DNA of 64,000 nucleotides from a virus. Position 1 is the first letter of the stretch. Each line of letters starts with the position of its first letter. The DNA lies in IMG/VR virus record IMGVR_UViG_3300045988_174402, one strand, 5' to 3'. Shown here in pieces: positions 11,173 through 59,968 of this stretch. The notes beneath the pieces are model-generated. The model saw only the letters and a list, made by a program, of their open reading frames with translations. It was not told where the DNA came from and made no database searches. The position numbers and the translations under genes were made by a program.

Positions 11173-14100
11173 ATCCTTGAGTCATTATTGTATGTAAAGC
11201 AGAGATGGTAGCTAATTGAGTTCCATTATATCTAACTCTAATAATCGCATATTTATCTCTTACTCTTGTAGATTTAAGAGTCTCATTTTCATAATATATT
11301 GGCTGAATAACTGTATACCACATATCATGATTATAATATATATTTCCTAACCTTCTGCCATACTCTTTAATATTTAAACAATCCTGATGTACTAATAACG
11401 AATATTCATTACGCATATTATCTCATGTAACAGTTGTATAATATTCCTTTTTTGTATTTTTATCATCGTCTTTATCTAATAAAATCTTAGGAAAAATATT
11501 TGTAATACTTTCTCCCTTTTTAATTGAAGAATAAATATTTTCTTTATCAAAATCGTATACATCTCCAACAATTTCTATTTCGAGAGATTCTGGTTCTACA
11601 TTATTAGAAACAATAACTAAATTATCAAATATTTTATGTAGTCCAGCTGGAGTATTAACAACAAATTCAAATTCGAATGGTTCTTGTTTATCATACCATT
11701 TAGTTGGGAATATTCTTCTCTTTGAATCTGGATTATTATAATCTACTTCATCAATATTTCCAGCTCTACCGTGTAAATATATATTGTTTAATAAAGCTTT
11801 TCTTCATTTATTTTTTTCCTCTGCGGATTTTAATTGATTTTCAGGAATAAGTAAACCTATATCATAAGATCTAGTTGCAGCAAATACTAAATAATCATTA
11901 TTACTTACTTTAGAACTATTATATATTCCTTTATATTTAGATAAAAGATATGGAGTATATTCTATATTTATAATATAATATAGATATTTACTATTAGTAT
12001 TCTTTTTAAATTTAATTACAGTTTTATCCTCTTTATTATAAACATAAGATATATAATATACATATAATGCATATTGTTGAGAAGCTTCGTTATTATCCTT
12101 TGTTTGAATTCTAACTCCATCTAAAGTTAAATATTCTTCTCCTACCTTTCAAAAATATAATCCTGTTTCTTCATCTTTTTCAGATTTAGGAATTATTACG
12201 TTGTTAGCTTCAATTATAAAATTATCATTATCAACCTTTGCTAAACTATAATCATTTTCTGCATGTTTGTCTATTAGTACCTCTGATTTAACTCTTTCAT
12301 CTCAATAATAACCTGTAATTTTTACAGATTGAATATTGAAATTTGCATATTCTGAATTAGAAATAAATCTTAAATCTTTATCAATATTTATATCATCTCA
12401 TAACCCATTTCATGGATTCATTGGAGCAATTATTGATTCTGATTGTTTCCTAAGATTATTATTTAAAATTCCATAGATATTTGTTTTAGAAAGATCAAAG
12501 CTAAAATAACTGTTATATAGATTACCTGAAAAGAATGGAGTTCATGAGTATCTAGTTACTCACATTTTTCGTACCTCATTATAACAGATATTCCAAATTT
12601 TATCTTTATTATAAAAAGTGAACATCACATCATTTTTATACGAGTTAAAATGAGTCTTTACATTTCTAACTCCTAGAATAACAGATTTTTCGAGTTTCTT
12701 TAAATTGATATTATCATTTAAATATCTCTGAATATTAAATTCTGATATTAACTCAAATCCTTCTTCTGACAGTTTTCAAATTTTCTTAGCATATGTATCT
12801 ACTCCATACAAAGCTCTTGGAGTTCTAATAATTGAATCTTTCCAACTTGATCCATACATATCAGAGATCATTGTCATTTGCTTTTGAAGAACTCCAGAAC
12901 CATACATATGAATGTTTTGTCCTTGAGTAGTTTGAATTAGTGCTTTTTCATTTACAGGAACTATAGCAATAGCATGTTCAAAGACACAAAGAATATTATT
13001 TTGTCAAGGAAGTATTTTAACAATTCCTCCATACTGCCTGTCCATGTCTTCGTATGACAATCCTTGAAATACTTTATATGAGTTTTTAAACGAACCGTCT
13101 ACTTGAACATTACTAAACATTATTCTAGTATCAAATATATCTTTAATATATGGTACTATTTCAAAAGCGTAATTTCTTTTTACTCCTACTGTAGTATTAT
13201 ACCCAAAGTTTAATAATGCAGATTCAGGAATCTTTGCAGATGATTTTACTGAAATATCATTTACAGGATAAAAGTTTCTATAGTTTCCCATTAATGCGTA
13301 TTCATCTGTATTGAATGGATCTAAAGACCGTAATCCAATATTTGAATTAGATAAACACTTATATACAAACCATGTTCCAATTGGAACTGCGTCTACATCA
13401 GCTTTATTGATTGCATCTCAATCTGTAGTACTTCTAGCTCCTTTAAAATTGTCTTTCCAGCAATTAGGATCAACAATTGTATCGTTAATAGGTACAGAGG
13501 TTGAAGTAAAATTACGATGCATTCTTGTACATACTGTTCCTGTAAAGCAGTCTCCTCTAAATACAATAGGAACTGTATTTAAATTAATATTAGTTTTATA
13601 TGTAAAAGATATTGGAATTAACTTTTTGTTAGTTGAATTATCTATAGCTAAATAGTCTTTACGCAGTTGCGTAAATGTAAATTCTGCAAAGTTAGGATTA
13701 TCAGTAATGTACTTTTTAATTGCTATATTATCATCAGTACTATCATCTATACTATCCTTATATTCTAATGCGGTATTTAGATAATCAATCAAATCCTTCT
13801 CAAATTCATAATCTGAAACCGAAGTTTCTCATAATGGACAATTTTTAGTAACAATTTGATCTTTTTCTATATCGTTAACTACTTCTTCATCAGATAAGCT
13901 ATATCTATCACTAACTGCAAAAAATGGAGAATTATCTCTCATTCTAATTGTAAAATATTCTTCAAGAAAGGCTTCACTGTAATTCTTTATATAAATATCA
14001 TATAAACAATTATCCTCAACATCTCCTTTAACTCCAATAAAAGATGTAAATATACCTCTGATATAATCAGTTGAAGTTGCGTTATCTGTAACAGTGTGCC

Positions 14101-26449: not shown

Positions 26450-27859
26450 TTACTTTTCACTAACTAAGATAAAGCTACGATATGGGTTGAATACACCAAC
26501 ACCAGCATAACCCCAGTCAATAAGTTTAGTTGCAGCTACTGGGCTTGCAACAGGACCACTTTCACGTCCACTTCTACGACCAACACCCTCTAACCAGTTA
26601 TGGCAGAACTCATTGTTCTTGAATGTGAACATTGCAATAGCGGGTTTTCCACTAGCAGCATCAGCAGTCAGATCAAGGAAGATACCATATTTCTTCTCAG
26701 GGAATTCGATATCAAGAGCACGGTCAACTTTGAAAGTTACAGTATTACCTGCATACTCGTATGAGTTATAGGTTGCACCAACTTTGATATAATCATTAGC
26801 ACCCTTAGAGAACATGAATGTACCAACAGTCTTCCAGTCACGAAGATATCCTGACAGACTATCTTGAATTTCAGCCCACATAGGAGTATTGCAAATAAAG
26901 ATATATTTATTGCCAGTAGGATTATTTGATTTAGCGATCATGGCAAGGATAGCGGTATTCATAACTTTATTAGTCATCTTTGAATACACATATTTACCTG
27001 CGAAACGCTCAATCTGAGGAATAATACCATCGCCAGAGATAATAGGCTCACCTGTTTCAGGATCAAAGATCTTAGGTTTACCATTCTTATCTACGTTAGT
27101 CTTACCCCAAAGCAGTGCATTTGCACGAGCAGCCATGAAGTTATCAAGACAATCTTTTTCTGCAGCATTCATTTTGTAAACAGGATCACTTTCTGTTCCT
27201 TTACCAATCTGAATGAAAACGTCCTCCATTGCACGATACTTAGCAGTGTAGTCTACATCTGCACGGTGTGTTGCAATAAATGTACGATGCTTTTCAACAT
27301 TTGACTGATACTTAACGTATCCTTCCTCATGCATTTCAGGCTGATAGTTCGTTAAGAAACGAGTCTTCATACCTGGCTGGCAGAATTCAACATCAAGAGT
27401 AGCATTGTAATCTGAATCTTGTAGTTTACCTACAATCTCCCAGTCTCTATCTGATCTACGAACAGGACGTGACAGGAAGATAACTTGCTGACGTGATCCT
27501 TCGATGATCATTACGTCATTTCTCTGATAATAATTTTCAGGGAAGTGGAAGATGATATCAGTACCCTGAGCACCATCGCCATCAGGAACCTGTAGGAAAG
27601 GAATTCTCTTAATAAATCCTACATTAATGTCCCACTCTACCATAAATGAATTAATACTTTGGAAACTATTTTTCTTGTCTTTTTCCATTGTATATATATT
27701 CATCAGAGATTCAGTAAGGTACGATGCGGTATACTGCTCATAAAGTGATGATACAATACCAAGACGTGCAGGTTTTTCACCTAAAAATTTGTAAAAATCC
27801 TCATATGTACGAGTTGAACTCATCTGAGGACGTACTGTACTAAAACTAGAAATTCTCAT
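26450..27859 (-). CDS. putative major capsid protein (469 aa)
   Basis: Large intact ORF preceded by an acidic scaffold-like gene. All 7 Trp codons are TGG, and the region looks more G+C-rich. The call rests on position and size, not on a database search. Confidence 0.6.
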   Translation of the reverse strand: MRISSFSTVRPQMSSTRTYEDFYKFLGEKPARLGIVSSLYEQYTASYLTESLMNIYTMEKDKKNSFQSINSFMVEWDINVGFIKRIPFLQVPDGDGAQGTDIIFHFPENYYQRNDVMIIEGSRQQVIFLSRPVRRSDRDWEIVGKLQDSDYNATLDVEFCQPGMKTRFLTNYQPEMHEEGYVKYQSNVEKHRTFIATHRADVDYTAKYRAMEDVFIQIGKGTESDPVYKMNAAEKDCLDNFMAARANALLWGKTNVDKNGKPKIFDPETGEPIISGDGIIPQIERFAGKYVYSKMTNKVMNTAILAMIAKSNNPTGNKYIFICNTPMWAEIQDSLSGYLRDWKTVGTFMFSKGANDYIKVGATYNSYEYAGNTVTFKVDRALDIEFPEKKYGIFLDLTADAASGKPAIAMFTFKNNEFCHNWLEGVGRRSGRESGPVASPVAATKLIDWGYAGVGVFNPYRSFILVSEK

Positions 27860-30679: not shown

Positions 30680-31678
30680 CTAGGCCGCTGGTGTTGTAGT
30701 TGGCTCAAACAGAATACTGTTTGAATAACCTGCACAAGGACAAAGTGGATTATAAAGTGAACGTTGTACTGTATCAGTTCCTACTTCTACAGCAGCTACA
30801 CGGATAGGATAGAAAGTGTTATTAGCATAGTTAACAATCTTGTTGTCAGCACACATTCTACGTTCTGCTTCAAGACCTACCATACCAGCTACACTAGCAA
30901 TCTCCATCTTAGTAACTTTGCTTCTCCAAGGCTCTACAGCAGCATTAACAGCAGCTGCAGTTTCAAGTTTACCAATCCGATCAGCTAATACATCGAATTG
31001 ATCTCTTTGATTTTTATACAGCCCGAAGTCAGCGTCGATCTGGCTCTTGTAAAGTCCAAACATTTCACCATTAATAGTCTGACGATCGTTAAAACGAGCG
31101 TTTGCAGACAGTAAAGCAAAATCATAAAGAGCTTTCTGATTAGCTAACTCAGCATTGCAAGAGTGTTGCCAAGCTTGGAATGTCGTTGGACCACCAGTAA
31201 TAGCTTCAGCAGCTAAAGCACCAGCAGCTGCACTACCTGTATTTCCAAGTCCGAATAAACCTCTTCCGCTAAGAGCTAAAAGTCCTAATGCGGTTCCAGC
31301 AATACCTACAATATTTTCACATAAGGTCGTTAATCTTATGCAGTTCTCTTATGAACTTCTACATCTTTATATATACATGTAGTTAAGACTATATCTTCAT
31401 CCAATTTGGATGCTCCCCATTTCGCACTACTTAGTGCTACTCTCTTCCGAGATAGTCGTTGAACTTTCAAAGATATTTCTATCTAAGCTTAGCTGCTGAT
31501 TGTCCATTTCTGGAGTTTCCAGCAATTAAGGGAGTTTTGCATATAATATTACTATTATAAGGACCTAGTATATTAAGCCTAATCCAGTACCAGCTACACC
31601 TTTTGAAGCATATTCTTTTTCACCACAATTTTCGTATACATCTTTATGTACCATTTCTTTCTTTTCTACTACTTCCAT
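30680..31678 (-). CDS. intron-interrupted structural gene: exon 1 31581..31678, exon 2 30680..31319 (about 245 aa spliced)
   Basis: Exon 1 reads MEVVEKKEMVHKDVYENCGEKEYASKGVAGTG and then hits TAG just past the predicted splice site. The exon 2 frame is open from 31348 to TAG at 30680. The predicted junction GTG-F-ENIVGIAGTALGLL keeps the frame (98 nt + 640 nt). Confidence 0.6.
31320..31580 (-). ncRNA. group I intron (261 nt, no ORF)
   Basis: Minus-strand matches to the classical P/Q/R/S elements: aattgctggaaa (31516-31527), aatcagcagc (31492-31501), gttcaacgacta (31453-31464) and aagatatagtc (31387-31397). A U-G pair is possible at the 5' splice site (ctggatt/ggtcc), and the terminal nucleotide is G. 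The 54 nt at 31451-31504 are identical to 47749-47802. Confidence 0.75.
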
Positions 31679-36467: not shown

Positions 36468-38069
36468 TTATTCGAATTCAACTCAAGTCATTAAACTATC
36501 AGCATAAGCCTTCACATCGCTAGCTTCAGCAAGACCTTTAGCACTTGAACTTGCACTAGCTACAGGTTGTAGCATAGAAGTAACTGTTACTGTAGTTCCA
36601 CTTTTACTAGTTGCGATATAAGTAGCAGCAGTGCCATTAACTGCCTGAATTGCAGAATCAGCTTTAGCACCTTGAGCAGCTTTAGCATAAGTACTTGATT
36701 CGGTATAAGCCGCACTCTTAAGACCATTAACCGTACCTTTAAGCTGCTTTCCCGACATGCTAAACTTAACCTGCCCATTAGTAACATTAGTAGTATCTAC
36801 AGTAATAGCCCCAGTTTGTCCACTAAATGATATAACTCTACTCTCAGTAAGGTCAGTTATTCTATCATCCATCGATTCAAGTACACTTTGAATTGGATTT
36901 TGCCCAAAATGCTCTCCTCCCGCTTCAATATCTGCACCAGTAAGTACTACATCAGCTGATAATGGTTTACTATTAACGGTTCTTGTAGTTGGAACTTTAC
37001 CAGCTAATGCAGTATCGAGTCCAGATATTTTAGAAGTAGGTAAAGTAGGAATATCAGAATCAGTAAGACCTGTTCCAGCAGTTACTAAACCTTTGGCATC
37101 ATAGGTAATCTTACACGCTGTACCTGCTGTAATACTTGCATTTGCAGTTATTTTTCCATTAACAGTTGTTGTTAAATTATTAAATGCAGTTAAAGTAGGT
37201 ACTTCATCTTTCTTAGCGTAAGTAGATAGATCAATTGTTCCACCTAACTTATCCCACATTTCTGTTTGATTACCTGCACCAGCCTTAATTGCTACAAAGT
37301 TTGAACCAGCTTCAAAAGCTTCTCCATTTAGAGTACCTGCAGTAGCTACATTATAAACATCACCGATAACAACTCCTGTAAGGGCAGTAAGAGCTGCAGC
37401 ATTATCTACAGAACCCTTCATCTTGTACACACTACCAACAGCAGAGGCCACTTTATTGTCAACTTCTGTTTTAGTGTATGTAGTAGCTTGAGGAGCTGCT
37501 GCTTCAGCCGTAGCTTTAACTGCATTAAGAGCAGTTGTAGTAGCTTTAGCGGCTAGATCTGTAGTCAGGCTAGTTACTTTACTTTGAGGAATTTCTCCTA
37601 CAGCAAATGTAACAGTACTAGTTCCAGACTGAGTAACTGTTTTGCCATCTCCCTTATAAACAATAGCGGCAGGAATTTTGCCAATCATAGTATCTGTATA
37701 TGATTTAGCGGAACTAATTGCAGACGATTTTGCTTCATCTGTATATTTCTTCAGTCCATAATAACTCTGTATAGTTGAGGCATCTCCAGATGCTCCAATA
37801 TTTAACTTCTTTGCAAGTTCTGTAGTTACCGAAGATGCCGATGCTACATCTGATAGATTTAGAGAAATCTCTTCTCCGCTTTCATTAATAATTTTAAGGG
37901 TTTTAGCACTCTCATCCCAGCTTGCAGATTTGACGCCATCACCAAATTTATCAACAGCAGTAGCACTTGTTGCTACTTTAATCATACCTGTTGATGTTTC
38001 AAAATATATTCTACCTGCTACAAGACCACTTTCTGGAACTGTAGCAATTTTTTGAAAACTTAATTGCAT
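36468..38069 (-). CDS. tail fibre protein (533 aa)
   Basis: Track ORF 36483..38069 ends at TGA, and the true stop is TAA at 36468-36470 (LMT-W-VEFE). It carries the fibre motif MWDKLGGTIDLSTYAKK. Confidence 0.7.
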
Positions 38070-40419: not shown

Positions 40420-42393
40420 TTAATTATTAACATCATTTCAAACCGTTGAGGTTAACTCTTCGATTTTATCTTCTAAATTTTGTATCTGTTGATCCATTTC
40501 TGCTTTAGTATAATAGTTATTCAAATCTACAGTAATTTGTCCACTTCCTCATTTTTCCCACATATAAACTTCTTCTGTAGTACTTGGAGAATGAACAACA
40601 ATATATTCTTCAAATAAGTCATGTAGAACTGTAGATTGAGCAGGAATCATATATAATTTTCCTAATTTATCTGCAGTAGGATCACCTAACTCTTCAAAGC
40701 TATTTGCAAATTTAATTTCAAATCCTGCTGTATTAGGAAATGATTTTCAAGCAGCTTCGAATTGTTCTTGATTGAGAGTACCACCAACAGCAATATAAGA
40801 ATGATATAAAAAGTCTTGGACTGAATATTGATCCATAGCTTCATCACATGGATCATACCAAATCTTATCATGCTCTGGCTCGTTATTTGGAAAATCAGAT
40901 TGGCATCCGATTGCTATATTTTCATCGCCAGGATCTCCTTTTTCTCCTTGAGGAATTCCAAATTTAAGATTTGCATCACTAATATCTGGATTTAAATCAG
41001 TTACATAAGGTTGTGCATCTGGTGCTAATTTTTCTACTTCAGAAACTACAGTTACTGTAGCAGGTTTTCCTTTAGGAACTTTTACATTTAAAGCTCATTC
41101 TCTAGGAGCATTAGTTTTATCAATTACTAATGACGGATTTTGATCTCACTCAACAGTTTCAATAGTTCCTGCATTAAATCTTGGAAGTACAGAACCAGTA
41201 GCAGTAATAACTTTACTTGATTCCATTGTAAGTTCTAAACTACCTTCTGCATCTGTAATATTAACAGACTTAATAGAATCTCCTTTTAGCTCATTTAAGT
41301 AACATAATACTGTCCATTCACTAACAGGAACTCCATCATAACCTCAAAGAATGCGATCATCTAAAAGAGTAGCAGGATCTCCAAAAACTCTAATAAGTTT
41401 AGGCGTTTTACCAGGTTCTCCTTGATCTCCAATAGATCTTCCTAGTACCTGCCAAGTAGCACCATCATTATATGATACATATCATTTATTATCCGTGATT
41501 TTAAGTATAGGACTAATTCCATCCTCTCCATCTTTACCATCACGTCCATTTCGACCATCGATTCCAGGACGACCTTCTGGGCCTCTTGCTCCAGTAGCTT
41601 GACCAATATCTTTTCATGAAGATTGGTTATCCATTGAAAGCATCCAACGGCCATTTTCTATTCGAAGATAAGGAGTTATTCCATCCTTTCCATTCTTCCC
41701 ATCTTTACCATTTACACCATCCTCACCTACAGCTTTACCTAGGTTTTCTCATTTATTATTATCATAGGAAAGCATCCAGTTACCATTTTCTATTTTGAAT
41801 ACTGGTGTTTTTCCATCAACTCCCTTTGGACCAGTGTTTCCTGTATCTCCTTTAGGTCCTTGTACAGGTACGTTTTCTTCAGTTTCTGGATCTTTTAAAG
41901 GTTCTCCGTTTACAGTTAAATAGTATAAATCACCTTTTTTTAGTAATCCAAGAATTGGAGTTTTTCCTTCTGGACCCTGAGGACCAATAATATTTGTTGA
42001 AGGAATTGAAGTAGGAGTTTCATCATCTAGTTTCCAAGAAATTATTCCATTTTTAACTTCAGGAACTCATACTTTGCCAGCAGGTCCTTCAACTCCTGCC
42101 ATTACAAAAGCTCAGAAAAGATTTGGTTTAATACCAATGATTTTATCGTTTTCTCGAACTAATTCAGGCATATTTAACGAAGATGATGTATGACTTCTAA
42201 TGCAAGACAATAAAGCTCCTTCAAATGATACAAAATCTACAATATATTCGTCATTAAAATAGTGAGTATTTGTTATTCATTCTCCCGCCATCTTAAAGGA
42301 AGTTCCCTTATAGAAATCTCTTGAATTATAAGCTCCAGAATACTCTCTTGAATTTTGTAGATCTATAGTAGGTAATATATTATTTTTTTTCAT
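40420..42393 (-). CDS. collagen-like repeat tail fibre protein (657 aa)
   Basis: ATG at 42391-42393 and TAA at 40420-42422. The whole gene was hand-translated: G-X-Y runs alternate with three ENGxWMLSxDxxxWxxxG-type units, and there are many TGA Trp codons. This explains why the track shows no real ORF here. Confidence 0.65.
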
Positions 42394-42398
42394 ATAGT

Positions 42399-45300
42399 TT
42401 ATATAACTTCGATAACTTTTTGCAAAATTACATTCTTAGTTGAAGAAAACAGTCATCCTTTATATTCTTTACCAGCAGTTACTACTACAGGATTATTTAC
42501 TAATATTTCATAGTTTGCATATCAAGTAGCAGGTTTTCCAGGAATTACTGCATTAGGTAATAATCAGATTTTTAAAGTTATACTTTGTCTTGGTAATACT
42601 GCTACATAGCTATAAGACTCTAACATATCAAATCCTGGTCGATAAAATCCTGTAGAATCAAATAGTAATGGGATATTACCGTTATTAAATATATCAATTG
42701 TATATTTTGATTTAGAACTCATATTATCAAATACAGACGCATCAATATTTAATAGTTGCACTTTTGATTTTGTAATATTAGATTCATTCATATAAACAGT
42801 AATATTCTTTAACCCAGTAAGAGTAACTGTTTGAGTAGTAGAGCTATATGTTAAGTCCAATACATCCTCATCTGAGCCGCTCATATTGCCATTTACAGAA
42901 ATATTTTTCGCATATATATTTCCGTCTGAGTCAAAAGAAATATTTCCTGTAGACATATGCCCTGTACCAGTTTCAAAATTGAACATAATATTTGGAATAA
43001 ATGTTCTAACTCCAGGTTTTTCTGGATTTGTACTATTTGCGGGTTCTCCAGGAGTAATTGGATTGAAATTTTCATAGTGGGTTGAAATCTCTCCATTTTC
43101 ATCTACACCTTGTTGACTAAACATATAAGCATCATTAAATACAGCAGAACCAATAAGAGCGTTAGGAATAATTCCAATTTTGGCATAGAGTGCTTCAAAT
43201 GCTTCTAACTTAACCCAACTGTTACTTGTATCAGTACTTGGAGATTCATTACTATGTAATGTTCCTTGCCATGTTCCCACTATATTTAAAACATAATAGT
43301 TAGCATCATTAGAATCATATACATAAGGAGTTTTATCTACAGTTCCTTGATATACAGTATTAACATTATAAATACCTTCAGGATAAATTATTTGTCCTTT
43401 AGAACCGTTCTCTCCATTTAACCCATTAGTTCCACTTAATTTAGTGGGAGTACTCCAGCTACCTTCAATTGTGCCAACTTTATCAGTATTACTTGTATAA
43501 TTTACTCTGGCTTGAATAAACCAAATATAAGGAGCCTCTTCAGTAGGAGTTGGAACCGCTAAATTCCAACCTGTCGGTTGTCTTGTCGTTCCAGGAGTAC
43601 TTGTTCCTCCATAAATTGTTGTAGTTCCTAAACAGTAACGAACTTCGATGCCAATTCCAGGTAATCCATCAACTCCGTCTTTACCTGCAGGACCAGGATC
43701 ACCAGTAACTCCAGGTTCTCCTTTTATTTTAGTCCATTTATAGTCAGATGGATCGTCACTATCATTTATATTAAAATCTACATATACTCCAATTCAAGCG
43801 CCTGGATCTTCTCCATTATTGCTTGTAAAAGTTGTACCTCCATCATTAGAGTATTTAATATGTAGATAACTTGTTTTTCCGTCTTCTCCATTAGTACCAG
43901 GAATTCCTTGATCGCCCTTTTCTCCTTGAATACCTTCAAATCTTGCCCAAGTATAGTCAGAAGGATCTGTACTATCTGCTTGAGTAAAATCTACATAAGT
44001 TCCAATATATGTACTTGGAGTTTCAGTCATTTGACTTGAAGAAGTTGGATTAGCAACAGAAGAATATTTAATATGGAAATATGTGGTTCTTCCGTCTGCT
44101 CCTGGAGTTCCAGGAATTCCATCTGTGCCATTTGTTCCATTTTCTCCACTTATAACAACTGGAGTAGTCCAGTTTGTATTTAGAGTATCATCAGGATTAA
44201 TAGTTGCTGTAGTCATCCAAAGATATCCATCTTTAGATTTTTCAGGAGGAACTATAGACCATCCTGAAGGAGTTCTTATTGTTGCATTTAATGTAGGAGG
44301 ATTTGAATTGCTTGTATTCACTGCAAATCTAAATTCTGTAAATTTACCATCTTGAGCTTGGCCATCTCTACCATTAACTGGTATTACTTCTGACCATTCA
44401 GTTACAAGCCCTGTCTCCCCATTAACCGTTCCAATACACTGCCACCAATTGCCACTAGTTGTAGGATAATCTTCCCATCCAGATGGACTAGGACTATTTC
44501 CTGTAGGTTTTGATGGTTTACTATCACTTAATTTATAAACGTATGTTTTCCAATTTGGTATTACTGCATCCTGTCCCTTTTCTCCTGTCATTTGAACAGG
44601 ATCTGACCATTCTCCAACAAGAGTAGAATCTCTAAAAGATGCTGTAATTGACCATATAATTTCAGAGGATGTGTGAATTGGAACAACTGTACTTCATACA
44701 GAACCAGGATTTGCATTAGTTTTATTTACAACAGGAGGAGTATTGACACTTCCACTCTTTGCATACATTAACTTAATACCTAATCCATCCTCTCCATTAG
44801 AACCATCAGTCCCATTTGTTCCGTCCTTGCCATTCTCTCCATCTTTACCATCAGCTCCTTTAGGTAATCCAAAACTAAATTTAAATATATCTCCTTCTAA
44901 AACTACATTAGCATTAGCTTCAGTTGTTGAAGAAACACTAGCTACTTCTGCATCAAAATTAGGAATTTCTCCGCCTTCAGAAATAGTTTTTCATTCTGTA
45001 TCATAATCTGCATCAGATTTTTTAACTAATGCTTGACCAGTAGTTCCTCCAGGAATTACTCCAATTCCATCAGAGCCATTCTTTCCATCAGTTCCATTTT
45101 GCCCAGGATCACCTGTAGCTTGGCCTATATCTTGTCAAGTTTGACCTTTATCCATTGAAAGTAGTCAACGACCGTCTTCAATTTTTAATTGTGGAGTAAT
45201 ACCATCAGTTCCACTTGGTCCGATAGGACCAATATCGCCTTTATCTCCTTTTTGACCTTTACCACTATTTCCCATAATAAAAGCTCAATACGGATTAGAT

Positions 45301-46505: not shown

Positions 46506-49050
46506 TTATACAACTTGTTTTATTTTATCATTATAAGGATTAGTATCAACTGTTTCTGCAGCTTGAATTTGAACTTGTTGCTGTTTTGTTTCAATAAGTT
46601 TATCGTTATAATCCTTATCGTTTTTAACTTTTTCTCTTTCAATAGCTACTTTTTCAGCTTCAAGTTGTAGTCTAGCTTGACTATTTTGTTCAAGTTGATT
46701 TTGTGATTGACCTAATTCCCTTTGTAATTGTTCATTTTGTTTCTGTAACTGTTGCAGATTTTGTTCATATTGCTGAAGTTGTTGCTGCAACTGAGAAACA
46801 CTATTATTTTCTTCCTTCTTAACAGCAGTAGCTTTAGCTACATAACGTTTAAGTTCGGACATACTATTGGCAGTTGCAATACTTACTGCCATATCGGGAT
46901 CTGACATTCCAGCTTTAATTAATTCAATATTAAGAGCCTTTACAGTTTCCATATCTTTAAAAGACTTAGAACTATCCTCAATATGTAAATCAAAATCTGT
47001 AAGTGTATAATGTTCAGGAAGTGCAGTAAATATTCTTGAATATTTATTACCTAACACAATAGTACCAGTAATACCATTTGGATATACTAATTTAGCTAAA
47101 TTAAGCATATCATAATTAGCTTCTTTATAAATGATATCCATGGTCTCAAAATATTGTTTAGTTAATAAACCTGACATTTTAACTCCAAGTTGAACATTAG
47201 AAACTGCATCTCTCTGTTCATATTGAGCTAATCTTTCAGGTAACACTCCTGTAATTGAAGAAGCTTGTTGTTCTACAGCTTGAATAGCTAATTGAATACC
47301 TTGAATAGCCTGAGCTTTAACAGTATCATCAAATCCATTAAAAATCGTATTAGGCATACCTTCATTACCTTCTTCCTTACTATTTATTAATGCTAAGCCA
47401 TTCTTTTTATATGCTTGCCAAGCTTTAACTCTATCAACTAATTTTTCACCTAAAAACGAAGGAATAAAAGAAATATCCATTCAATCTCCAACTCCTCCTG
47501 AAGAAGCAATAAGATTATCTCTAAAATATATAAGTAAATCATATTTCATTGTTTATTCGATATAGGTCGTTAATCTATATCCGTCTTTTTGACTGCTGCA
47601 TGTCACCATGCAGATTAGACTATATCATACAAATTTGATTTAAAATTAATTCAAATAAATTCTGTTTCATTATATTTCATAACTACTTATAATTAATTTT
47701 AAATTAAACTTGTCCCCGCGCTTCCACTTACTTAAGTGTACTCCTTTCGGATAGTCGTTGAACTTTCAAAGATATTTCTATCTAAGCTTAGCTGCTGATT
47801 GTCTTAAATTTACTATTATTCAATTTAAGGTTTTCCAGCAATTCACGGGGTTTATACAGGACTCATATAATTTAATCCTGTAGGTCCATAGTATGAGCTA
47901 TTAATGAATATGGATCTCCATTTTTATCTAAGAAAAACATTCCGTTAACAGATAATCTACATCTACTAGGACAATCTGCACTTCTTACAATATACTTTGA
48001 TTCTCCACGAGTAATATATACTTCTGAACCAATTTTTACTCCTTCATGTCTTGTTAATTCTCCAGTTTTATAATCTGCTTCAATTCATTCAACTTCATAT
48101 ACAGGAATAAGATGATTCTTTATAGGTTCTATTGAATCATAATCTCCAGGCCATCCTGGATGTGCTTCAAGTCCTGCAAGAATACCTGTATGTAAATTAT
48201 CAGCTCGTAAATTAGGCTCAGCAGGTTTACCAACATATCTAACCAAATAAGTAGGAGATGTTGAATCTGCAGTTTGTTGCATATCTCTAATTTTCTTAGC
48301 TGCTTCTGTAGTTAATTCTGATCTGAATGTATTTAAGATATCCTCTCTTGACATTCATTTTCTAATAACAACTCTCTTAGAATCTGCAAGATAAGGAGAA
48401 TTTGGATTACGTTCTATAAATGTATTAACGGGATTTAAAATTTCAATATTGACATTTGAATTACTTTCTGTAGGTTTTACTCTATAGTAACAAGTACCTG
48501 TAACAAGTAAATCTGTAAGTAATTCTGCCATTTTACGTTTTAAATCGATGTTTCTTGATTGTCTTAAATAATCAAGAATATTTTGTGCAGCAATTTCATA
48601 TTCCGAAACAAAAGATTGATCAATATCTTGTTGAATTGAGTTGATTTCTTTTTCAATAAAAGGATCATTTACAATTTCTTTATTTTCAATAATAGCTGCA
48701 ATAATGTTATTCTTTAAATACTGTTGCAAATAATTAAATACTTCTGCACTAATTTTAAGTTGCTTTTCTCTCATTATATTTGAAACAGTCTTTTCATCTT
48801 TGCAAGATACTTTTAAATCTTGATTTAAACCTAGATATTCTCCAACTAATACATCAATATGTTTCTTAATTAATGGTGTAAAACTAACTGATGTAGGAGT
48901 CCCAATTCCGTAATTTTCTTCTAGGTGTTTGAATTGATCTGCATCTCTACGACAATGATAATATCCATAAGCTTTTCTTATAGCAACTTTATCATATACA
49001 AGATTACCTATCGCATCATTAATCTTCTTTACTTCATTCTCTATCACCAT
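46506..49050 (-). CDS. putative portal protein, intron-interrupted: exon 1 47875..49050, exon 2 46506..47546 (738 aa spliced)
   Basis: Track ORFs 48355..49050 and 48085..48354, plus the open frame down to 47875, share one frame. Exon 2 contains track ORF 46506..47480. The predicted junction HTMDLQD|KYDLLIYF is in phase 0. The portal call rests on size and position beside the terminase. Confidence 0.55.
47547..47874 (-). ncRNA. group I intron (328 nt, no ORF)
   Basis: P1 helix tacaggaU|taaattatatga-Gtcctgta with a U-G pair at the splice site. P element gaattgctggaaaa lies at 47831-47844, Q and R lie within the 54-nt block 47749-47802, and S element gatatagtct lies at 47627-47636. The terminal nucleotide is G at 47547, and TAA codons block the exon frame inside the insert. 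Confidence 0.75.
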
Positions 49051-55009: not shown

Positions 55010-56938
55010 TTAAAATACTATAGGTTTATCTAAATCTAATTCAGATTTAATCTTAACGTCTCTTTTATAATGTTTAAGCATTCTTTCAACATCTGATTTT
55101 AAATAATCACATTCATGTTCTGAAATATGATTGTTGTGATCAATATGAATTAATACTAATTTTTTAATATTAAAGTTTGGATTAATTTTTTGTAGTAAGT
55201 AAGCATATAATGATAACTGCAACGAATAATGATAAAAATTACAATCCATAATATTATCCATTGGGAATTTCATCATAGTTCTACTTTTAGTAAATTTATT
55301 ATAAAATGATTCTTTTTCTAATTTCTTATTAGTATTATGTGTAACTATCATTGAATCACCGAATAAAAACGTGTGTGATGGACTGTCAACTTCTAAGCAT
55401 TGCGTTGCTACTGTATCAACTCTTTCTACAGATATAATATTTCTAAATGTATTCTTATTTTTAGATGGGAAGTCGATATCTTGATTTCTTACTAAAAAGG
55501 GATTTAATCCATCAGTTGAAAAACATACATCTCATCCTTTAAATATCTTTCCATTACATTTTTTATCTACTTCAAAAACAGTAGCTTTTATGCCTAATGT
55601 ACTTACTAACCTTAATAAATCTTCAGCTTGTCATTTCTGAGTAGTTCCCATTACAAATCTTTTTCTAGATTCATGATAGTAACCATCAGTATCCATTAAC
55701 CCTCTAAGCAAATCAAGTCTTTGTTGATAAGAGGCTCGCATATATAAATCAGGTATAAACTTATTATTTAGTATTCCTAGATCGTTAAGTTTTTTTCTAA
55801 TATTATATATAGTTCGCATTTCCGCAGATTTTCCGTCAGAAAGATCTCCTCCAAAAGTATATCCTCTATTTTCTATTTCTTCCCATACTTTAGAGTTTAT
55901 ATTAGTGATAATTCCACATGACTTAGAGCCATCTCCTAGTCAACATCCCAGTACATAAGGATCTATAGGAAGTTCTATTTCTGGAAGATTTAGAGGATTT
56001 GCGTTCATTATTTTTGGGATATTGTACGAGGTTCTTGGTTTATCAATTAACCACTTTGCAATATCTTCTGTGGTCATAACTACTTCCCTAAATGTTTTAT
56101 CTATATTCCTAAAAGAAATAAGTCATCTATGTTCATGGTCTGCCACAATCGACTCTCCGTTATCAAAAGTTATTTTAAAACATGGATTGTAATGGATATC
56201 TGATTTATGTAACACTTTAGTTATATTTCCTTCTTTATCAAATATCTCTTCTCCCTCCTTTATATCCTTAATAGTTGTCCATCCGTTTTTAGTTGGAATT
56301 TTTGTATCTAGAGGGAGTCCTTTATAATCGTATATATAAATATCATTACCGTCTTTAATGAGTAAGTCTAACTGTCCTGCAATTCTTAGTATTCCATCAT
56401 CTGATTTATAACTAATCATAAATTCAGGATATACTCCTTTTTCTAAATCTAACTGATAGTATCCTTTTTTGCAAGTAAACTTTCCTCCAAGTCCAAACTT
56501 TTTTAGATCTTGTTCTTCAGATTGATAATACATGTTTTCAAATTGAGCATGTATTTTTGTACCTCTTTCACAAGATTTATTTCTTTCTACTTCATACGAT
56601 TGAAGTATTTCTGCCCGTTTATTTTCAAACTCTTCTTCGTTGATATTTAACTTTTCAAGTAAAGTTGGATTTCAACGTTTTGTATTTAGTAATGTAGTTT
56701 TAACAACTTTAAAAATTTCTGGTTCTACTAAAGCTTCGCAAGCTTTATATGCAGATCAGAATGCTGAATCAAACTCATTAACATATTTATGTATCAATGT
56801 TGTTACAGATACATAAGGCTTATTATCATATTTATCTAAGTACAGATGTTTTGCATCTGAATAAATAACATCTTCTGTTTCTTTGTCTACTTGATATCCA
56901 TTAACATATTTTTCCTTTACATTACTTAATTTTGGCAT
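55010..56938 (-). CDS. PD-(D/E)XK (RecB/Cas4-type) nuclease interrupted by an intein (642-aa precursor)
   Basis: Track ORFs 56756..56938, 56123..56533, 55631..55819 and 55010..55351 share one frame and are joined by TGA. Extein motifs are GTKIHAQFE, GQLDLL...IYIYDYK upstream of the insert and YSLQLSLYAYLL (QxxxY) downstream. Confidence 0.7.
55334..56320 (-). mobile_element. intein (about 329 aa) with LAGLIDADG homing endonuclease, class-3-like
   Basis: Block A GLPLDTKIPT, block B GESIVADHEHR-W, LAGLIDADG motifs YVLGCWLGDGS and LLRGLMDTDGYY, blocks F/G TQCLEVDSPSHTFLFGDSMIVTHN, followed by Thr as the +1 residue. Confidence 0.75.
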
Positions 56939-57623
56939 TGTTTATTATATTTGGTTTTATATATTGTTCTATTATTGCTCCGTATCTAATTAAATTCTCT
57001 TTAATAGTACTATCTTCATATCCTACTTCGTTTTCTTTTTCTCAAGTGAATCCTAAAATTCCTGTTGGAGTTCCAGTATCATCTTTTAGTAGAGTACATG
57101 CTAAATATTCTACATTATTTTTTCCAAATCGATCATACATTACATGATCTATTTGTTCTAAAGTAGTTAAGTTACCGATAAACTGATTATGTGTTTTTAA
57201 ATAATCAGGAAGATTTAATCAACTAAGATGAAAATTATCATATTGTTCTTTGATTGAGTGTGCGTTTTCTCCACATAACTCAAATCGCATAGAACCATAT
57301 AATCAATCAGAAATACCATTGTGATATTGTATTACTCATACTCTATCTGCACCTGACATATATAATAGTCTTGGAAGTAGATCTTTAACTTTCTTATCAT
57401 CATCAATCCTATTTAACAATTCTTGTGAATGTTTCTGATTCATATATTCTGAATACTTATCAAATAAAAATGTTGGATCATAACATATTCTCAAAGTAAT
57501 ACTTAACATAAACATGATGATTAAGGCTTTAAAGATACTACATACTCCATAATCTCTAATATACTGTAGGATAGTCCCCAGTCATGAGAGTCCTGAGCTT
57601 AAATCGGGTTGTTTCTTAGCCAT
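56922..57623 (-). CDS. hypothetical protein with N-terminal TM segment (233 aa)
   Basis: ATG at 57621-57623 and TAA at 56922-56924, hand-translated. It has several TGA Trp codons, so it is absent from the track. Confidence 0.55.
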
Positions 57624-57784: not shown

Positions 57785-58063
57785 ATGAAATATAACGATG
57801 AAATTTTAAACAAAATTGCGCAGGCATATAGTAAACCTGCAGATGAAAAAGGTAATCTAGATAATATTATGTTAGGTTATCTTGAAATGATGAAGAATGG
57901 TAGTAAAATCCATATTAAACCAGAAAATAGAGGTAAATTTAATGCTACTAAAAAGAAAACTGGCAAAACTACTGAGGAATTAACTCATAGTAAAAATCCA
58001 GTAACCAGAAAACGTGCTATTTTTGCTCAGAATGCTGCTAAGTGAAATAAGGGTAAAAAATAA
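57785..58063 (+). CDS. small basic protein (92 aa)
   Basis: The track ORF ends at TGA 58043-58045, and the true stop is TAA at 58061-58063 (NAAK-W-NKGKK). Confidence 0.6.
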
Positions 58064-58067
58064 AGGT

Positions 58068-58974
58068 ATGATAAAACAATTTATCTTTCAAAACAGGGGG
58101 GGGGGTAAAAAAAATAAATAAGTCTTATTTTTATTTTTATGGCCCAGATTATACAGTTCCAAAAATTACAGATTCAAATATTGAACCCTTACGCACGGCT
58201 AATTACTTATTTGGGGTTTCATTTGATTATCCTTTAGATTATGATGATCAAGAACAATATTTTAAAATAACTGTAAATTTAACATTTACTTATTTGGGAG
58301 TTGATACTCCACTACCTGTAAACTATACTGTATCTGTGGGAACAATAGAAGATACAGGTATTGGTTTCGATCATAAGAATTTTGCTATACCTGTAAACTT
58401 ATTGTTTCCAATATCTTCATTAGAACGTATGACGTTTAATTCTGCAACTATTGAAATATGTAACCCTAATCCAAAATACGATTATATAGCTCCCACAGGG
58501 TTTTCTACATCAGGAGAATATATTGCAGTAAACACTAATCTTTATATGGATAATAGTCAGTTTGGAAGTTATCAAGGAATGTTTAAAGCAGATTTATATA
58601 ATTCAAGTGCAGGAATATTAGTAGTAAACAATCCTATGACTTTAGAATTTAGTGCAAATAGCAATCCATATATAAGTAAACTACAAACTAATTGAGCTAA
58701 ACGTGCAGATTTAGTTTCTAGTATGACAAGACCTCAACTTGATTTAAGATGTGTAGATAAAGATGGAATGGCTTCTAATATGTATATGGGAGTAAGTTAT
58801 GCAGTACTTTCTTATTATTTTGCAGGGGAAATAGATACTATACTTAGTGCAGTTGAACAGATAAGAATACCTATTATAACTGGACAAACTGCAGTAAATG
58901 GAGATTCAAATTATATAGACGAAAGTCTGGTAGGAGATTATCTCATATATAATATTAACACATACCTTCAATAA
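58068..58974 (+). CDS. FISQN-tag family member A, out of frame at a G10 tract
   Basis: The ATG at 58068 gives MIKQFIFQNRGGGKKNK and then a stop at 58119-58121. The long ORF (frame +1, open 58072-58974, includes track ORFs 58294..58695 and 58723..58974 joined by TGA) has no ATG of its own. A G9 tract would fuse the two. Confidence 0.5.
58096..58105 (+). repeat. poly-G tract (G10) followed by A8
   Basis: Read directly: aacaggggggggggtaaaaaaaat. Confidence 0.9.
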
Positions 58975-59535
58975 TGATAAATAATTTAGAGATATTAAAA
59001 CCTATTCTTCACTTTGAAAAAGATTATTATGTAAGAGTAATAATTCTTTCAAGATTGAAAGATGGTCATTCTACTCAAAAAAGAATCTGTAAAGATTTAT
59101 TTTTTGGTTCATTTGAATCATTAAAAGAAACTATGCCAGATATAATCAAAGTTGCAGAAGAATACTACGCTAGAGTATATATTGATACTGTTTCAAAAAG
59201 ATTGTCCTCTGGATTTTTATCTCAGATAGAGTGAGAGCGGTTTAAAGTTTTTTGGAATTAAACCTCAGCTAAAAGATATTATTATAAATGAAGATTTTTA
59301 TGGTTTATATGATGCTGATGAATATTCTGAGAATGCAAACAAAATAGTGGCCTCTATATCTAAAGAACTTAACTTTACTCCTTTAATTATAAAATCTTCA
59401 AATAAAGGAGAGCATTGATTATATAAAATTTCAGAGCTTTATACAATGTTAGATAAAATTGAAGATAATTATATTAGAAATAAGATTTTTATAGGACATG
59501 CATGAGCATGCTTATATAATCCATGTACTAATTAA
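58974..59535 (+). CDS. hypothetical protein, apparently split by a +1 frame change near a T6 run
   Basis: The frame from the ATG at 58974 ends at TAA 59256-59258. The +1 frame is open from 59230 to TAA at 59533-59535 without any ATG near its start. The run gttttttgg sits at about 59245-59253. Confidence 0.4.
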
Positions 59536-59536
59536 T

Positions 59537-59968
59537 ATGCAAGCAAATAAATATTTTCAAGTAAAAGAATTAGTATCATCTAAAATATATAATCAATATG
59601 GTGATGATGCTATAAAATTTCTAGATCCAAAAGCTCTTGAAGCTTTAGAGAATGTTAGAGAAATTCTAAATGTTCCTCTTATATGCAATAATTGATATGC
59701 AGGAGGATCTAGAAATTATAGTGGTTATAGAGAACCTGGATGTGGAGTTGGTACTCCTACAGGCTATCATTATAAAGGTCAAGCGTTTGATTTAATATCA
59801 ACTAAATTAACTGCTAAAGAGATGAGAGAAATTCTCGAAAATAATCAAGATAAACTTAGATATCCTATACGAGTAGAAAAATGAGACAATAAAGGTGAAA
59901 TCTCTTGATTACACATTGATATTTCTCCAAATACACATGGGAAAAAACTATACTTTTTTAAAGCATAA
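59537..59968 (+). CDS. endolysin, peptidase M15 (zinc D-Ala-D-Ala carboxypeptidase fold) type
   Basis: The HYKGQAFD (H-x-x-G-x-A-x-D) and W-L-H-I-D motifs are present, with three in-frame TGA Trp codons. ATG at 59537 and TAA at 59966-59968. Confidence 0.65.

What the first reader, a model, noticed from the sequence alone, without database searches (positions are those of the whole stretch)
31320..31580. Second group I intron, sharing an identical 54-nt core with the portal intron
Gene 30680..31678 has a 98-nt first exon and a 640-nt second exon, separated by 261 nt carrying the same P/Q/R/S elements. Positions 31451-31504 are identical over 54 nt to 47749-47802 (gatagtcgttgaactttcaaagatatttctatctaagcttagctgctgattgtc), while the peripheral parts differ. 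The predicted splice keeps the frame (GTG-F-ENIVG). The U-G pair and terminal-G rules are both satisfied. Two sibling ORF-less introns in one late-gene region imply recent intragenomic spread or gene conversion. The host gene is probably a conserved structural gene whose function I could not assign.
Basis: partly seen in the sequence, partly recalled or inferred. Interest (0 to 1): 0.7.

Follow-up and report, generated by a model that had tools for sequence, protein, structure and literature searches.

The report
ORF-less group I intron in crAss-like phage

Summary
A group I intron is confirmed on the minus strand (Rfam RF00028, 92 bits, E 2e-22). Its fold is supported by strong covariation across 97 distinct related viral sequences. 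An intron-less allele that is ~99% identical downstream of the site, plus more than 3000 homologs, place the intron at 31575..31309 (267 nt). Exon 1 is 31678..31576 and exon 2 is 31308..30680, giving ...GTGLG|LGIAG..., not GTGF|ENIVG.

About 28 of those nt are invariant in the whole intron family. Only the central P6a hairpin is peculiar to these two introns: 29 IMG/VR occurrences, all orthologs of one or the other.

The two introns are not copies of each other. The nearest relative of this intron sits at the same site in a related phage. It is 250/251 nt identical, but carries a 218-aa GIY-YIG homing endonuclease gene where the window has 16 nt. The portal intron keeps the first 25 nt of a deleted endonuclease ORF in P8. 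Each intron is independently present or absent among near-identical genomes.

My best reading is two endonuclease-less mobile introns at different stages of the homing cycle, with a P6 module exchanged between them. This is a new member of a known kind.

The parts
31576..31678 (-). Exon 1 of the host gene (103 nt; ATG at 31678). It ends ...GGAUUAGGCU, and the last U forms the U.G wobble of P1.
   Evidence: Alignment with the intron-less allele and with homologs; P1 in the Rfam alignment.
31309..31575 (-). Group I intron I1 (267 nt, IA2-like, no ORF). It starts UAAUAUAC and ends ...GAAAAUAUUG, with the terminal G at 31309.
   Evidence: RF00028 at 92.3 bits; own model R1 at 209 bits; exact excision against the intron-less allele; no ORF.
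30680..31308 (-). Exon 2 of the host gene (629 nt including the stop). It starts UAGGUAUUGCU, and its first three bases (UAG) can pair with CUA next to the guide sequence to form P10.
   Evidence: sequence reading.
31562..31567 (-). Internal guide sequence UAGGUC (intron positions 9-14). It pairs with exon GGCU plus intron UA to form P1.
31542..31559 (-). P2: a 7-bp all-A/U helix with a GUAA loop. It is present in I1, L141, L144 and L180 and absent from the portal intron, L164 and L159. It does not vary among the introns that have it, so it is predicted only.
31387..31534 (-). Catalytic core P3-P4-P5-P6-P7-P7.1-P7.2-P8, with the P3/P7 pseudoknot.
   Evidence: Covariation on 97 distinct sequences: 94% of cells paired against 33-44% in slid controls, and 37 of 41 pairs show changes on both sides.
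31451..31504 (-). 54-nt block identical to 47750-47803. It covers the end of the P5 3' strand, the P4 3' strand, P6/P6a, J6/7 and the P7 5' strand.
31469..31484 (-). P6a hairpin segment AGAUAGAAAUAUCUUU (16 nt). This is the only stretch that separates I1 from the endonuclease-carrying intron of L141, which has 687 nt here.
31320..31382 (-). 3' peripheral domain: P9, P9.1 and P9.2. The P9.2 loop AUUAACGAC is conserved.
   Evidence: Compensatory changes in P9 and P9.2 among I1, L144, L164, L170 and L159.
47547..47874 (-). Sibling intron I2 in the portal gene (328 nt; no P2; long A/T-rich P8). Portal exon 1 is 49050..47875 and exon 2 is 47546..46506.
   Evidence: RF00028 at 62 bits; R1 at 101 bits; portal homologs read ...SLVINTMDLQDKYDLL... 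across the junction; intron-less portal alleles are exactly 328 nt shorter.
47656..47680 (-). Remnant of a deleted homing-endonuclease ORF inside P8 of I2: ATGAAATATAATGAAACAGAATTTA, the first 8 codons of the 263-aa ORF that is intact in L263.
47750..47803 (-). The 54-nt block in I2.

Best explanation
Window 31575..31309 (minus strand) is a 267-nt subgroup-IA2-like group I self-splicing intron. It interrupts codon 35 of a Crassvirales-conserved virion-module gene, inside the invariant motif GTGLG|LGIAG. The host is an uncultured ~165-178-kb crAss-like phage of the intron-rich 'Zeta' type.

Inferred splicing mechanism, from the family:
- The guide sequence UAGGUC pairs with exon GGCU, with a U.G wobble at the splice site.
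- Exogenous G attacks after that U.
- The 3' exon UAG then docks on the same guide (P10).
- The terminal G at 31309 is released, giving an mRNA for a 243-aa protein collinear with intron-less homologs.
- Unspliced RNA stops 4 codons into the intron.

The intron has no endonuclease gene of its own, but it is the endonuclease-less form of a mobile intron. In a related phage (L141) the same site holds an intron identical at 250 of 251 shared positions, with a GIY-YIG/NUMOD1 homing endonuclease gene in the P6 loop. That is the same layout as T4 td/I-TevI.

In the window that 687-nt segment is replaced by a 16-nt hairpin. With its family-invariant flanks, the hairpin is identical to P6 of the portal-gene intron 16 kb away. 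The most likely origin is ectopic recombination (gene conversion) templated by the portal intron, which removed the endonuclease gene.

What is shown: the intron identity, the boundaries, the fold, the ORF-containing siblings, and the presence/absence polymorphism. What is inferred: self-splicing activity, the direction of the endonuclease loss, and the conversion event.
For: Identity and fold:
- RF00028 matches at 92.3 bits.
- Model R1, built from the I1 core, finds 112 relatives in 99 viral loci. There, 94.1% of cells are paired against 33-44% in slid controls, and 37 of 41 pairs change on both sides. This includes P7.1 and P7.2, and also P7, which was not in the model.
- P9 and P9.2 show compensatory changes among same-site relatives.

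Boundaries:
- The intron-less alleles L001-L004 and L124 differ by exact absence of the 267 nt.
- Homologs are collinear across the junction.
- U at -1 pairs with G of the guide sequence, and the intron ends in G.

Endonuclease-less derivative:
- L141's intron is 90/91 plus 160/160 nt identical to I1. Its extra segment holds a 218-aa ORF: phrog_314 homing endonuclease at 7e-24, phrog_5123 (GIY-YIG motif) at 1e-7, NUMOD1 at 5.6e-5.
- Homologous ORFs with the same 3' junction sit in P6 at the same gene site in phages whose host protein is only 45-77% identical (L180, L170-172, L159). The ORF-in-P6 state is therefore old.
- Other ORF-less same-site introns (L144, L164) have different short P6 sequences, which points to independent losses.

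P6 exchange:
- At least 70 different P6 sequences occur among 119 family members that share identical P4/P7 flanks.
- A complete IMG/VR scan for the P6a-specific 26-mer finds 29 loci: 6 I1 orthologs and 23 I2 orthologs, including the ORF-containing I2 of L263/L086. There is no third type.

Mobility:
- All four combinations of I1 and I2 presence/absence exist among closely related contigs.
- Six synonymous differences lie within 14 nt around the insertion site, against 9 in the next ~1000 nt downstream.
Against: - No RNA data, so splicing has not been observed.
- P1 is short (4 exon pairs, two of them wobbles) and P10 is only 3 bp.
- The covariation alignment was fitted to the model's structure, which inflates the paired percentages. 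The slid controls and the unmodelled P7 partly answer this.
- The direction of the P6 event is inferred from distribution only. No genome was found that carries both an ORF-containing I1 and I2.
- L141's own portal is intron-less and only 67% identical.
- A 7-nt similarity (GAAATAT) between the end of the endonuclease ORF and the hairpin leaves room for an internal-deletion origin.
- Upstream of the insertion site the two alleles are generally more diverged. The cluster of differences at the junction is therefore suggestive of co-conversion, not proof.
Confidence: 0.8

Rival explanations
1. I1 is a recent intragenomic copy of the portal intron, or the reverse: one intron transposed to a second gene.
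For: 54 nt are identical, including a P6a hairpin found nowhere else in IMG/VR. The L9.2 loop AUUAACGAC is shared. In the window, I2 is the best non-self hit of the I1 model (101 bits).
Against: - Outside the block, identity is low and the architecture differs in P2, P5, P8 and P9.
- P3 differs by two compensatory pairs, read from the sequences.
- I1 has much closer relatives at its own site in other phages: L144 at 159 bits and 88% identity, and L141 at 250/251.
- The two introns derive from forms with unrelated endonuclease ORFs in different loops.
- I1 occurs in genomes without I2, and I2 in genomes without I1.
Confidence: 0.05
2. The 54-nt identity is only purifying selection on the catalytic core. 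There was no exchange, and the shared P6a is retained from a common ancestor.
For: AATCAGCAGCTAAG and AAGTTCAACGACTA are exact in at least 119 viral loci. More than half of the block is therefore family-invariant.
Against: The 21 nt between those motifs are the most variable part of the family, with 70 or more variants of 15-25 nt. Yet they are identical in I1 and I2, while constrained helices such as P3, P7.1 and P7.2 have diverged. I1's closest same-site relatives (L141, L144, L180) do not have this hairpin.
Confidence: 0.1
3. The direction is reversed. The ORF-less I1 with the hairpin is the older form, and the GIY-YIG gene invaded its P6 loop to give the L141 form.
For: Endonuclease genes are known to invade intron loops (review PMC3984707). 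I1 and the L141 ribozyme parts are almost identical, so a single event separates them in either direction.
Against: Homologous endonuclease ORFs with the same 3' junction (…GFKWKYKE overlapping J6/7-P7) occur at the same site in phages whose host protein is 45-77% identical. The ORF-in-P6 arrangement therefore predates the I1/L141 split. This reading also would not explain why the hairpin equals that of I2.
Confidence: 0.12
4. 31320-31580 is an intergenic spacer between two independent genes.
For: the ORF listing shows a 37-aa ORF (31565..31678) and separate downstream ORFs.
Against: More than 3000 homologs are single proteins spanning both parts. An allele ~99% identical downstream of the site lacks exactly these 267 nt and is one ORF. 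The spacer is a full-length RF00028 match.
Confidence: 0.01

Closest known systems
Phage T4 td intron with I-TevI (group IA2; GIY-YIG endonuclease ORF in the P6 loop)
   Same: The IA2-type core has P7.1 and P7.2. The ORF-containing sibling (L141) carries a GIY-YIG plus NUMOD1-type endonuclease gene looped out of P6, with its 3' end overlapping core sequence. The intron sits in a highly conserved stretch of a phage protein gene. The comparison with td rests on my own knowledge of that system and on the general statement in PMC3984707 that ORFs sit in peripheral loops.
   Different: The window's copy has lost the ORF. The host gene is a virion-module gene of a Bacteroidota-type crAss-like phage rather than a nucleotide-metabolism gene. 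The endonuclease reaches only E 0.011 against Pfam GIY-YIG, below the curated cut-off.
T4 nrdB intron versus RB3 nrdB intron (I-TevIII): a deletion derivative of a mobile intron
   Same: T4's nrdB intron keeps a truncated, inactive endonuclease ORF and is not mobile. RB3 has the longer, active version (PMC1865063). The window's portal intron likewise keeps only the first 8 codons of the ORF that is intact in L263, and I1 has lost its ORF entirely. The defunct nrdB intron can still be mobilised in trans by a free-standing endonuclease (PMC2790892). That is a model for how I1 could still spread.
   Different: Here the ORF of I1 appears to have been replaced by a hairpin identical to that of a non-allelic intron in the same genome, not simply truncated. 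No free-standing endonuclease was found in the window.
Staphylococcus phage Twort introns (several small ORF-less IA2 introns with similar cores in one genome)
   Same: Multiple short ORF-less group I introns with closely related cores occur in structural or late genes of one phage. The Twort ribozyme is the solved IA2 reference structure (cited in PMC3984707). The rest of this comparison is from my own knowledge.
   Different: The host clade differs, the two window introns sit in different genes 16 kb apart, and ORF-containing versions of both are still circulating.
Group I introns of 'Zeta' and 'Delta' crAss-like phages (Yutin et al. 2021, PMC7886860)
   Same: [quoted passage not shown] The window shows TGA-as-sense in the portal gene and an intein.
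   Different: That study found introns through their endonuclease domains, so ORF-less copies like this one were not what it searched for. [quoted passage not shown] The host gene here is not among them.

Membership tests
Group I intron (Rfam RF00028) | Conserved core helices P3-P8 with the P/Q/R/S sequence elements | tested here: met
   92.3 bits against a gathering score of 50, over the full model. All ten core helices are 92-98% paired across 97 distinct relatives, with changes on both sides in 37 of 41 pairs.
Group I intron (Rfam RF00028) | 5' splice site after a U that forms a U.G wobble with the internal guide sequence in P1 | tested here: met
   The exon ends GGCU. The guide UAGGUC gives G-C, G.U, C-G, U.G, then U-A and A-U with the intron. 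The same position is fixed independently by the intron-less allele.
Group I intron (Rfam RF00028) | Terminal G at the 3' end of the intron, and P10 pairing of the 3' exon with the guide | tested here: met
   The intron ends ...AUAUUG at 31309. Exon UAG can pair with CUA (intron positions 8-10), but this is only 3 bp.
Group I intron (Rfam RF00028) | Excision restores an uninterrupted, conserved reading frame | tested here: met
   The spliced product is 243 aa, 99% identical to the intron-less P0001, and collinear with 57 homologs.
Group I intron (Rfam RF00028) | Guanosine-dependent self-splicing activity | not testable with these tools
   This needs in vitro transcription and a splicing assay, or RNA-seq.
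Subgroup IA (IA2-like) | Extra helices P7.1 and P7.2 between the P7 5' strand and the P3 3' strand | tested here: met
   Helices 8 and 9 are 94.5% and 96.2% paired, and all 9 pairs change on both sides. I did not compare against curated IA1/IA2/IA3 models, so the exact subgroup label is provisional.
Mobile (homing) group I intron | An intron-encoded homing endonuclease | tested here: not met
   The window's copy has no ORF. The window has no homolog of either sibling endonuclease. An intact GIY-YIG-type ORF is present in the otherwise identical intron of L141.
Mobile (homing) group I intron | Presence/absence polymorphism at one site among close relatives, with flanking marker co-conversion | tested here: inconclusive
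   The polymorphism is clear. Six synonymous differences lie within 14 nt of the site, but the upstream flank is generally more diverged, so co-conversion is not proven.

The most novel reading that the evidence does not exclude
Non-allelic sibling introns in one phage genome exchange structural modules by ectopic gene conversion through their invariant core sequences. In this case the exchange deleted a homing-endonuclease gene by overwriting the ORF-bearing P6 of one intron with the plain P6 hairpin of the other. If this is general, the very high intron load of Zeta-type crAss-like phages would behave as a concertedly evolving intron family. Recombination between introns would then be a route out of the endonuclease phase of the homing cycle, alongside decay by point mutation and simple deletion.
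Probability: 0.5. Interest if true: 0.5.

Novelty: new member of a known kind. Interest (0 to 1): 0.35.

Why it matters
Practically, the gene is split, so gene callers report a 37-aa stub and an N-terminally truncated protein. Many database entries for this family and for the portal do start at exon 2. ORF-less introns are missed by surveys that rely on endonuclease domains and, as shown here for the portal copy, by filtered covariance-model scans of long sequences.

Biologically, this phage lineage holds several stages of the homing cycle side by side in public metagenomes: empty site, endonuclease-carrying intron, deletion remnant, and clean ORF-less intron, at two sites. That makes it a convenient natural system for studying how phage introns gain and lose mobility, and whether introns in one genome recombine with each other.

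It does not reveal a new kind of element.

Tried and rejected
- Whole-window Rfam scan at gathering threshold, and a 2.5-kb scan at E<=1: both missed the portal intron. Only a 600-nt scan found it. Negative Rfam results on long stretches are therefore unreliable here.
- Motif searches for further copies. TTTCCAGCAATT has a third exact hit at 13454, but it lies in ordinary coding sequence.
- A filters-off scan of the window with my own model found only I1 and I2. The next hit, 37928-38055, scores 16 bits at E 0.02, lies inside a tail-fibre ORF, and was treated as noise.
- Host-protein function: no PHROG hit, no meaningful Pfam hit, no PDB sequence hit, and no Foldseek hit. The AlphaFold model is poor (pLDDT 58; one Gly/Ala-rich hydrophobic helix and one very long helix). 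The only lead is 38% identity over ~100 aa to p-crAssphage KP06_gp61 'putative tail protein'.
- Nearest named phage: megablast found nothing except a 48-nt intron-core match to Bacillus phage BpSp. The MCP is only 53% identical to two unannotated faecal phage records.
- Free-standing endonuclease: tblastn with both sibling endonucleases and a PHROG scan of 27 of the window's other ORFs found none, apart from an intein.
- tRNA scan for a UGA suppressor: none in the window.
- The ORF-poor stretch 57.6-59.8 kb holds plus-strand small genes, not an intron.
- I looked by eye for a pairing partner of the conserved L9.2 loop (L7.2, J3/4, guide sequence) and found nothing convincing.

Full report
**Observation**

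The window is A/T-rich (31% G+C). In this region all genes run on the minus strand. Rfam's group I intron model matches 31585..31366 (minus) end to end at 92.3 bits, E 2.2e-22.

The 54-nt repeat is exact.

The portal-region copy gave no Rfam hit in the whole-window scan or in a 2.5-kb scan. It scores 62 bits, above the gathering score of 50, when only 600 nt are searched. The earlier misses were caused by the speed filters.

**Boundaries**

A database search returned more than 3000 homologs, none named by their sources. Full-length homologs read ...ASKGVAGTGLGLGIAGTALG... with no room for FENIV.

One cluster, P0001, is 97-99% identical and uninterrupted. Its DNA (L001-L004) is ~99% identical to the window downstream of the site. 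It aligns as GGACT|TGGCATT against the window's GGCT|[267 nt]|TAGGTATT.

Only one placement of the break puts a U before the intron and a G at its end. That gives:
- exon 1 at 31678..31576
- the intron at 31575..31309
- exon 2 at 31308..30680

The product is 243 aa.

The same U is the U.G wobble in the P1 helix that Rfam aligned. The guide UAGGUC (31567..31562) pairs with GGCU|UA. The first three exon-2 bases, UAG, can replace the intron bases on the guide to form P10. Unspliced RNA meets a stop after four codons.

**Fold**

I drew P1-P9.2 by hand on the sequence. I then built a covariance model of intron positions 36-193, leaving out the pseudoknotted P7.

With filters off, the model finds only two matches in the window: I1 at 209 bits and the portal intron at 101 bits. 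The next hit scores 16 bits.

In 99 of those loci the model found 112 matches.

On that alignment:
- 94.1% of cells form standard pairs, against 33-44% when partners are slid by 1-3 columns.
- 37 of 41 pairs show changes on both sides.
- The covariation score is 0.50, against 0.04-0.07 for the slid controls.
- P7, which was not modelled, is 92% paired.
- P7.1 and P7.2, the subgroup-IA hallmark, are fully covarying.

The alignment is fitted to the model, so the absolute percentages lean high. The contrast with the controls is still large.

P9 and P9.2 show compensatory changes among introns at the same gene site. P9.2, for example, is CAUAAG/CUUAUG in one set and CAUAGA/UCUAUG in another. P2 never varies among the introns that have it, so it remains a prediction.

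**What phage this is**

The window encodes a Crass_capsid major capsid protein (26450-27859) and a P22-like portal. The portal contains two in-frame TGA codons at conserved Trp-like positions. Near-identical IMG/VR contigs are 164-178 kb long.

[quoted passage not shown] That study identified introns through endonuclease domains (PMC7886860).

No close relative exists among GenBank phage records. The best capsid match is 53% identical.

**The host gene**

Relatives occur in 547 IMG/VR stretches. They are weakly similar (38% over about 100 aa) to p-crAssphage KP06_gp61, annotated 'putative tail protein'.

PHROGs, PDB sequences and Foldseek gave no hit, and Pfam gave only one weak sub-threshold match. 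The model has low confidence: a Gly/Ala-rich hydrophobic helix, one very long helix and a Cys-containing tail.

The intron sits in the most conserved stretch of the protein. That stretch is identical at the amino-acid level from 40% to 100% overall identity.

**Relatives of this intron**

Scanning 79 host-gene loci with the model shows that the same codon is occupied by related introns in many diverged phages.

- L144/L145 (host protein 69% identical) carry an ORF-less intron 88% identical to I1 along its whole length. Their P6 is different and shorter.
- L164/L166 (47%) carry another ORF-less version with yet another P6.
- L141 (95%), L180 (77%), L170-172 (45%) and L159 (48%) carry a version with an ORF in P6. 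Their C-termini are homologous (...GFKWKYKE) and run into J6/7-P7.

L141's intron is 938 nt long. Its first 91 nt match I1 at 90 positions and its last 160 nt match at 160.

Between those ends L141 has 687 nt holding a 218-aa ORF, where I1 has AGATAGAAATATCTTT. The ORF begins GIIYKYTSPSGKVYIGQT. It matches:
- PHROG homing-endonuclease families (7e-24)
- a GIY-YIG-motif family (1e-7)
- Pfam NUMOD1
- Pfam GIY-YIG only at E 0.011

So I1 is the endonuclease-less form of a td/I-TevI-style mobile intron. Because the ORF-in-P6 state is shared by deeply diverged hosts, loss is the more likely direction.

**The portal intron**

Portal homologs read ...SLVINTMDLQDKYDLL... across the break. This fixes the intron at 47874..47547 (328 nt). 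The exon ends CAGGAU and pairs with the guide GUCCUG. Rfam's own P1 assignment for this copy was wrong, and this intron has no P2.

Intron-less portal alleles are exactly 328 nt shorter.

One contig (L263/L086) has the same intron with about 800 extra nt in P8. These encode a 263-aa endonuclease-like protein (phrog_681 at 2e-14; phrog_559 'HNH endonuclease' at 4e-8). The window's copy keeps the first 25 nt of that ORF (47680..47656) joined directly to the sequence that follows the ORF. That is a plain deletion scar.

**The 54-nt identity**

The block consists of family-invariant core on both sides and a central hairpin. AATCAGCAGCTAAG and AAGTTCAACGACTA are exact in every one of the 119 or more loci. 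The central part is the most variable region of the family: at least 70 different sequences of 15-25 nt.

A complete IMG/VR scan for the hairpin-specific 26-mer gives 29 loci. Six are I1 orthologs and 23 are I2 orthologs, including the ORF-containing I2. There is nothing else.

I1's closest same-site relatives lack the hairpin, whereas I2 has it in both its forms. Outside the block the two introns differ in P2, P5, P7.1, P7.2, P8 and P9, and by two compensatory pairs in P3 (sequences).

The simplest account is that I2's P6 overwrote the ORF-bearing P6 of an L141-like I1, by recombination through the invariant flanks. I put this at roughly 0.5-0.6. The alternatives are retention from a common ancestor, endonuclease gain rather than loss, and internal deletion helped by a GAAATAT similarity. 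They are listed with their evidence under the rival explanations.

**Mobility**

Among contigs 91-100% identical in these genes:
- I1 and I2 occur together in the window, in 3300045988_165948 and in 3300030343_000036.
- I1 occurs alone in _166963, _167243 and 3300014793_000001.
- I2 occurs alone in _159133 and, apparently, in the source of L001.

Between the I1-plus and I1-minus alleles, six synonymous differences fall at -8, -7, -4, -2, +2 and +5. Only nine differences fall in the next ~1000 nt downstream. The upstream flank is more diverged overall, so this is compatible with co-conversion but does not prove it.

The window contains no homolog of either sibling endonuclease, and the ORFs tested showed no other free-standing endonuclease. 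Any present-day spread of I1 would need an enzyme supplied in trans, as shown for the defunct T4 nrdB intron (PMC2790892), or ordinary recombination.

**Verdict**

This is a genuine group I intron, with its boundaries now corrected. It belongs to a kind already reported for this phage group. The added value is the reconstruction of its history, and of its sibling's history, from public metagenomes.

Noticed in passing
window 55013-56941 (minus strand): The ORF has an N-terminal exonuclease match (phrog_298, 4.5e-18). It is interrupted by an intein-like insert with two LAGLIDADG-type motifs (LGCWLGDGS, GLMDTDGY) that ends ...VTHN|T. The middle part matches intein-bearing terminase and primase PHROGs.
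   Followed up: partly
window 48355-48357 and 48085-48087 (minus strand, portal exon 1): Two in-frame TGA codons sit inside the portal gene at positions where homologs align through (…VIRKWMSRE…, …YEVEWIEAD…). This implies that UGA is read as sense in late genes. No tRNA gene is in the window.
   Followed up: partly
L108 435-7004 and L098 7448-8921 (IMG/VR loci): There are about 12 and 6 group I core matches within 7 kb and 1.5 kb respectively, all on one strand. This is an extreme intron density in other viral contigs.
   Followed up: no
window 31320-31340 and 47559-47581 (minus strand): The terminal hairpin P9.2 has different, compensating stems in the two introns but an identical 9-nt loop, AUUAACGAC. 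The loop is also kept in same-site relatives (L164, L159) and resembles the J6/7-P7 strand UCAACGACUA. No pairing partner was found.
   Followed up: partly
L034 11104-11585, L046, L029, L041 (contigs of the same phage lineage, outside the window): A third related intron has P6 CTAATTAGTAATAATTAGA. It is preceded by the end of an endonuclease-like ORF (...GGYKWKYKI, with TGA read as W) and followed by an ATPase-like exon. The genome therefore holds at least three sibling introns.
   Followed up: partly
window 31512-31559: 48 nt of the intron (P2 to the P4 5' strand) are 94% identical to an unannotated stretch of Bacillus pumilus jumbo phage vB_BpuM-BpSp (KT895374.1, 191753-191799). This suggests a related intron in a phage of a different bacterial phylum.
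   Followed up: no
window 41500-45120 (minus strand): Long collagen-like Gly-X-Y repeats lie in two large paralogous ORFs (~45578-42402 and ~42435-40423) that share a 257-nt segment at 72% identity.
   Followed up: no
window 57785-59695 (plus strand): A small island of five plus-strand ORFs sits in a window that is otherwise entirely minus-strand. None of them was characterised.
   Followed up: no
protein database hits P0009, P0121, P0131 and many others: Many database entries for the host protein and the portal begin at exon 2 or are chimeric. Gene callers evidently truncate these genes at the introns or at TGA codons.
   Followed up: no
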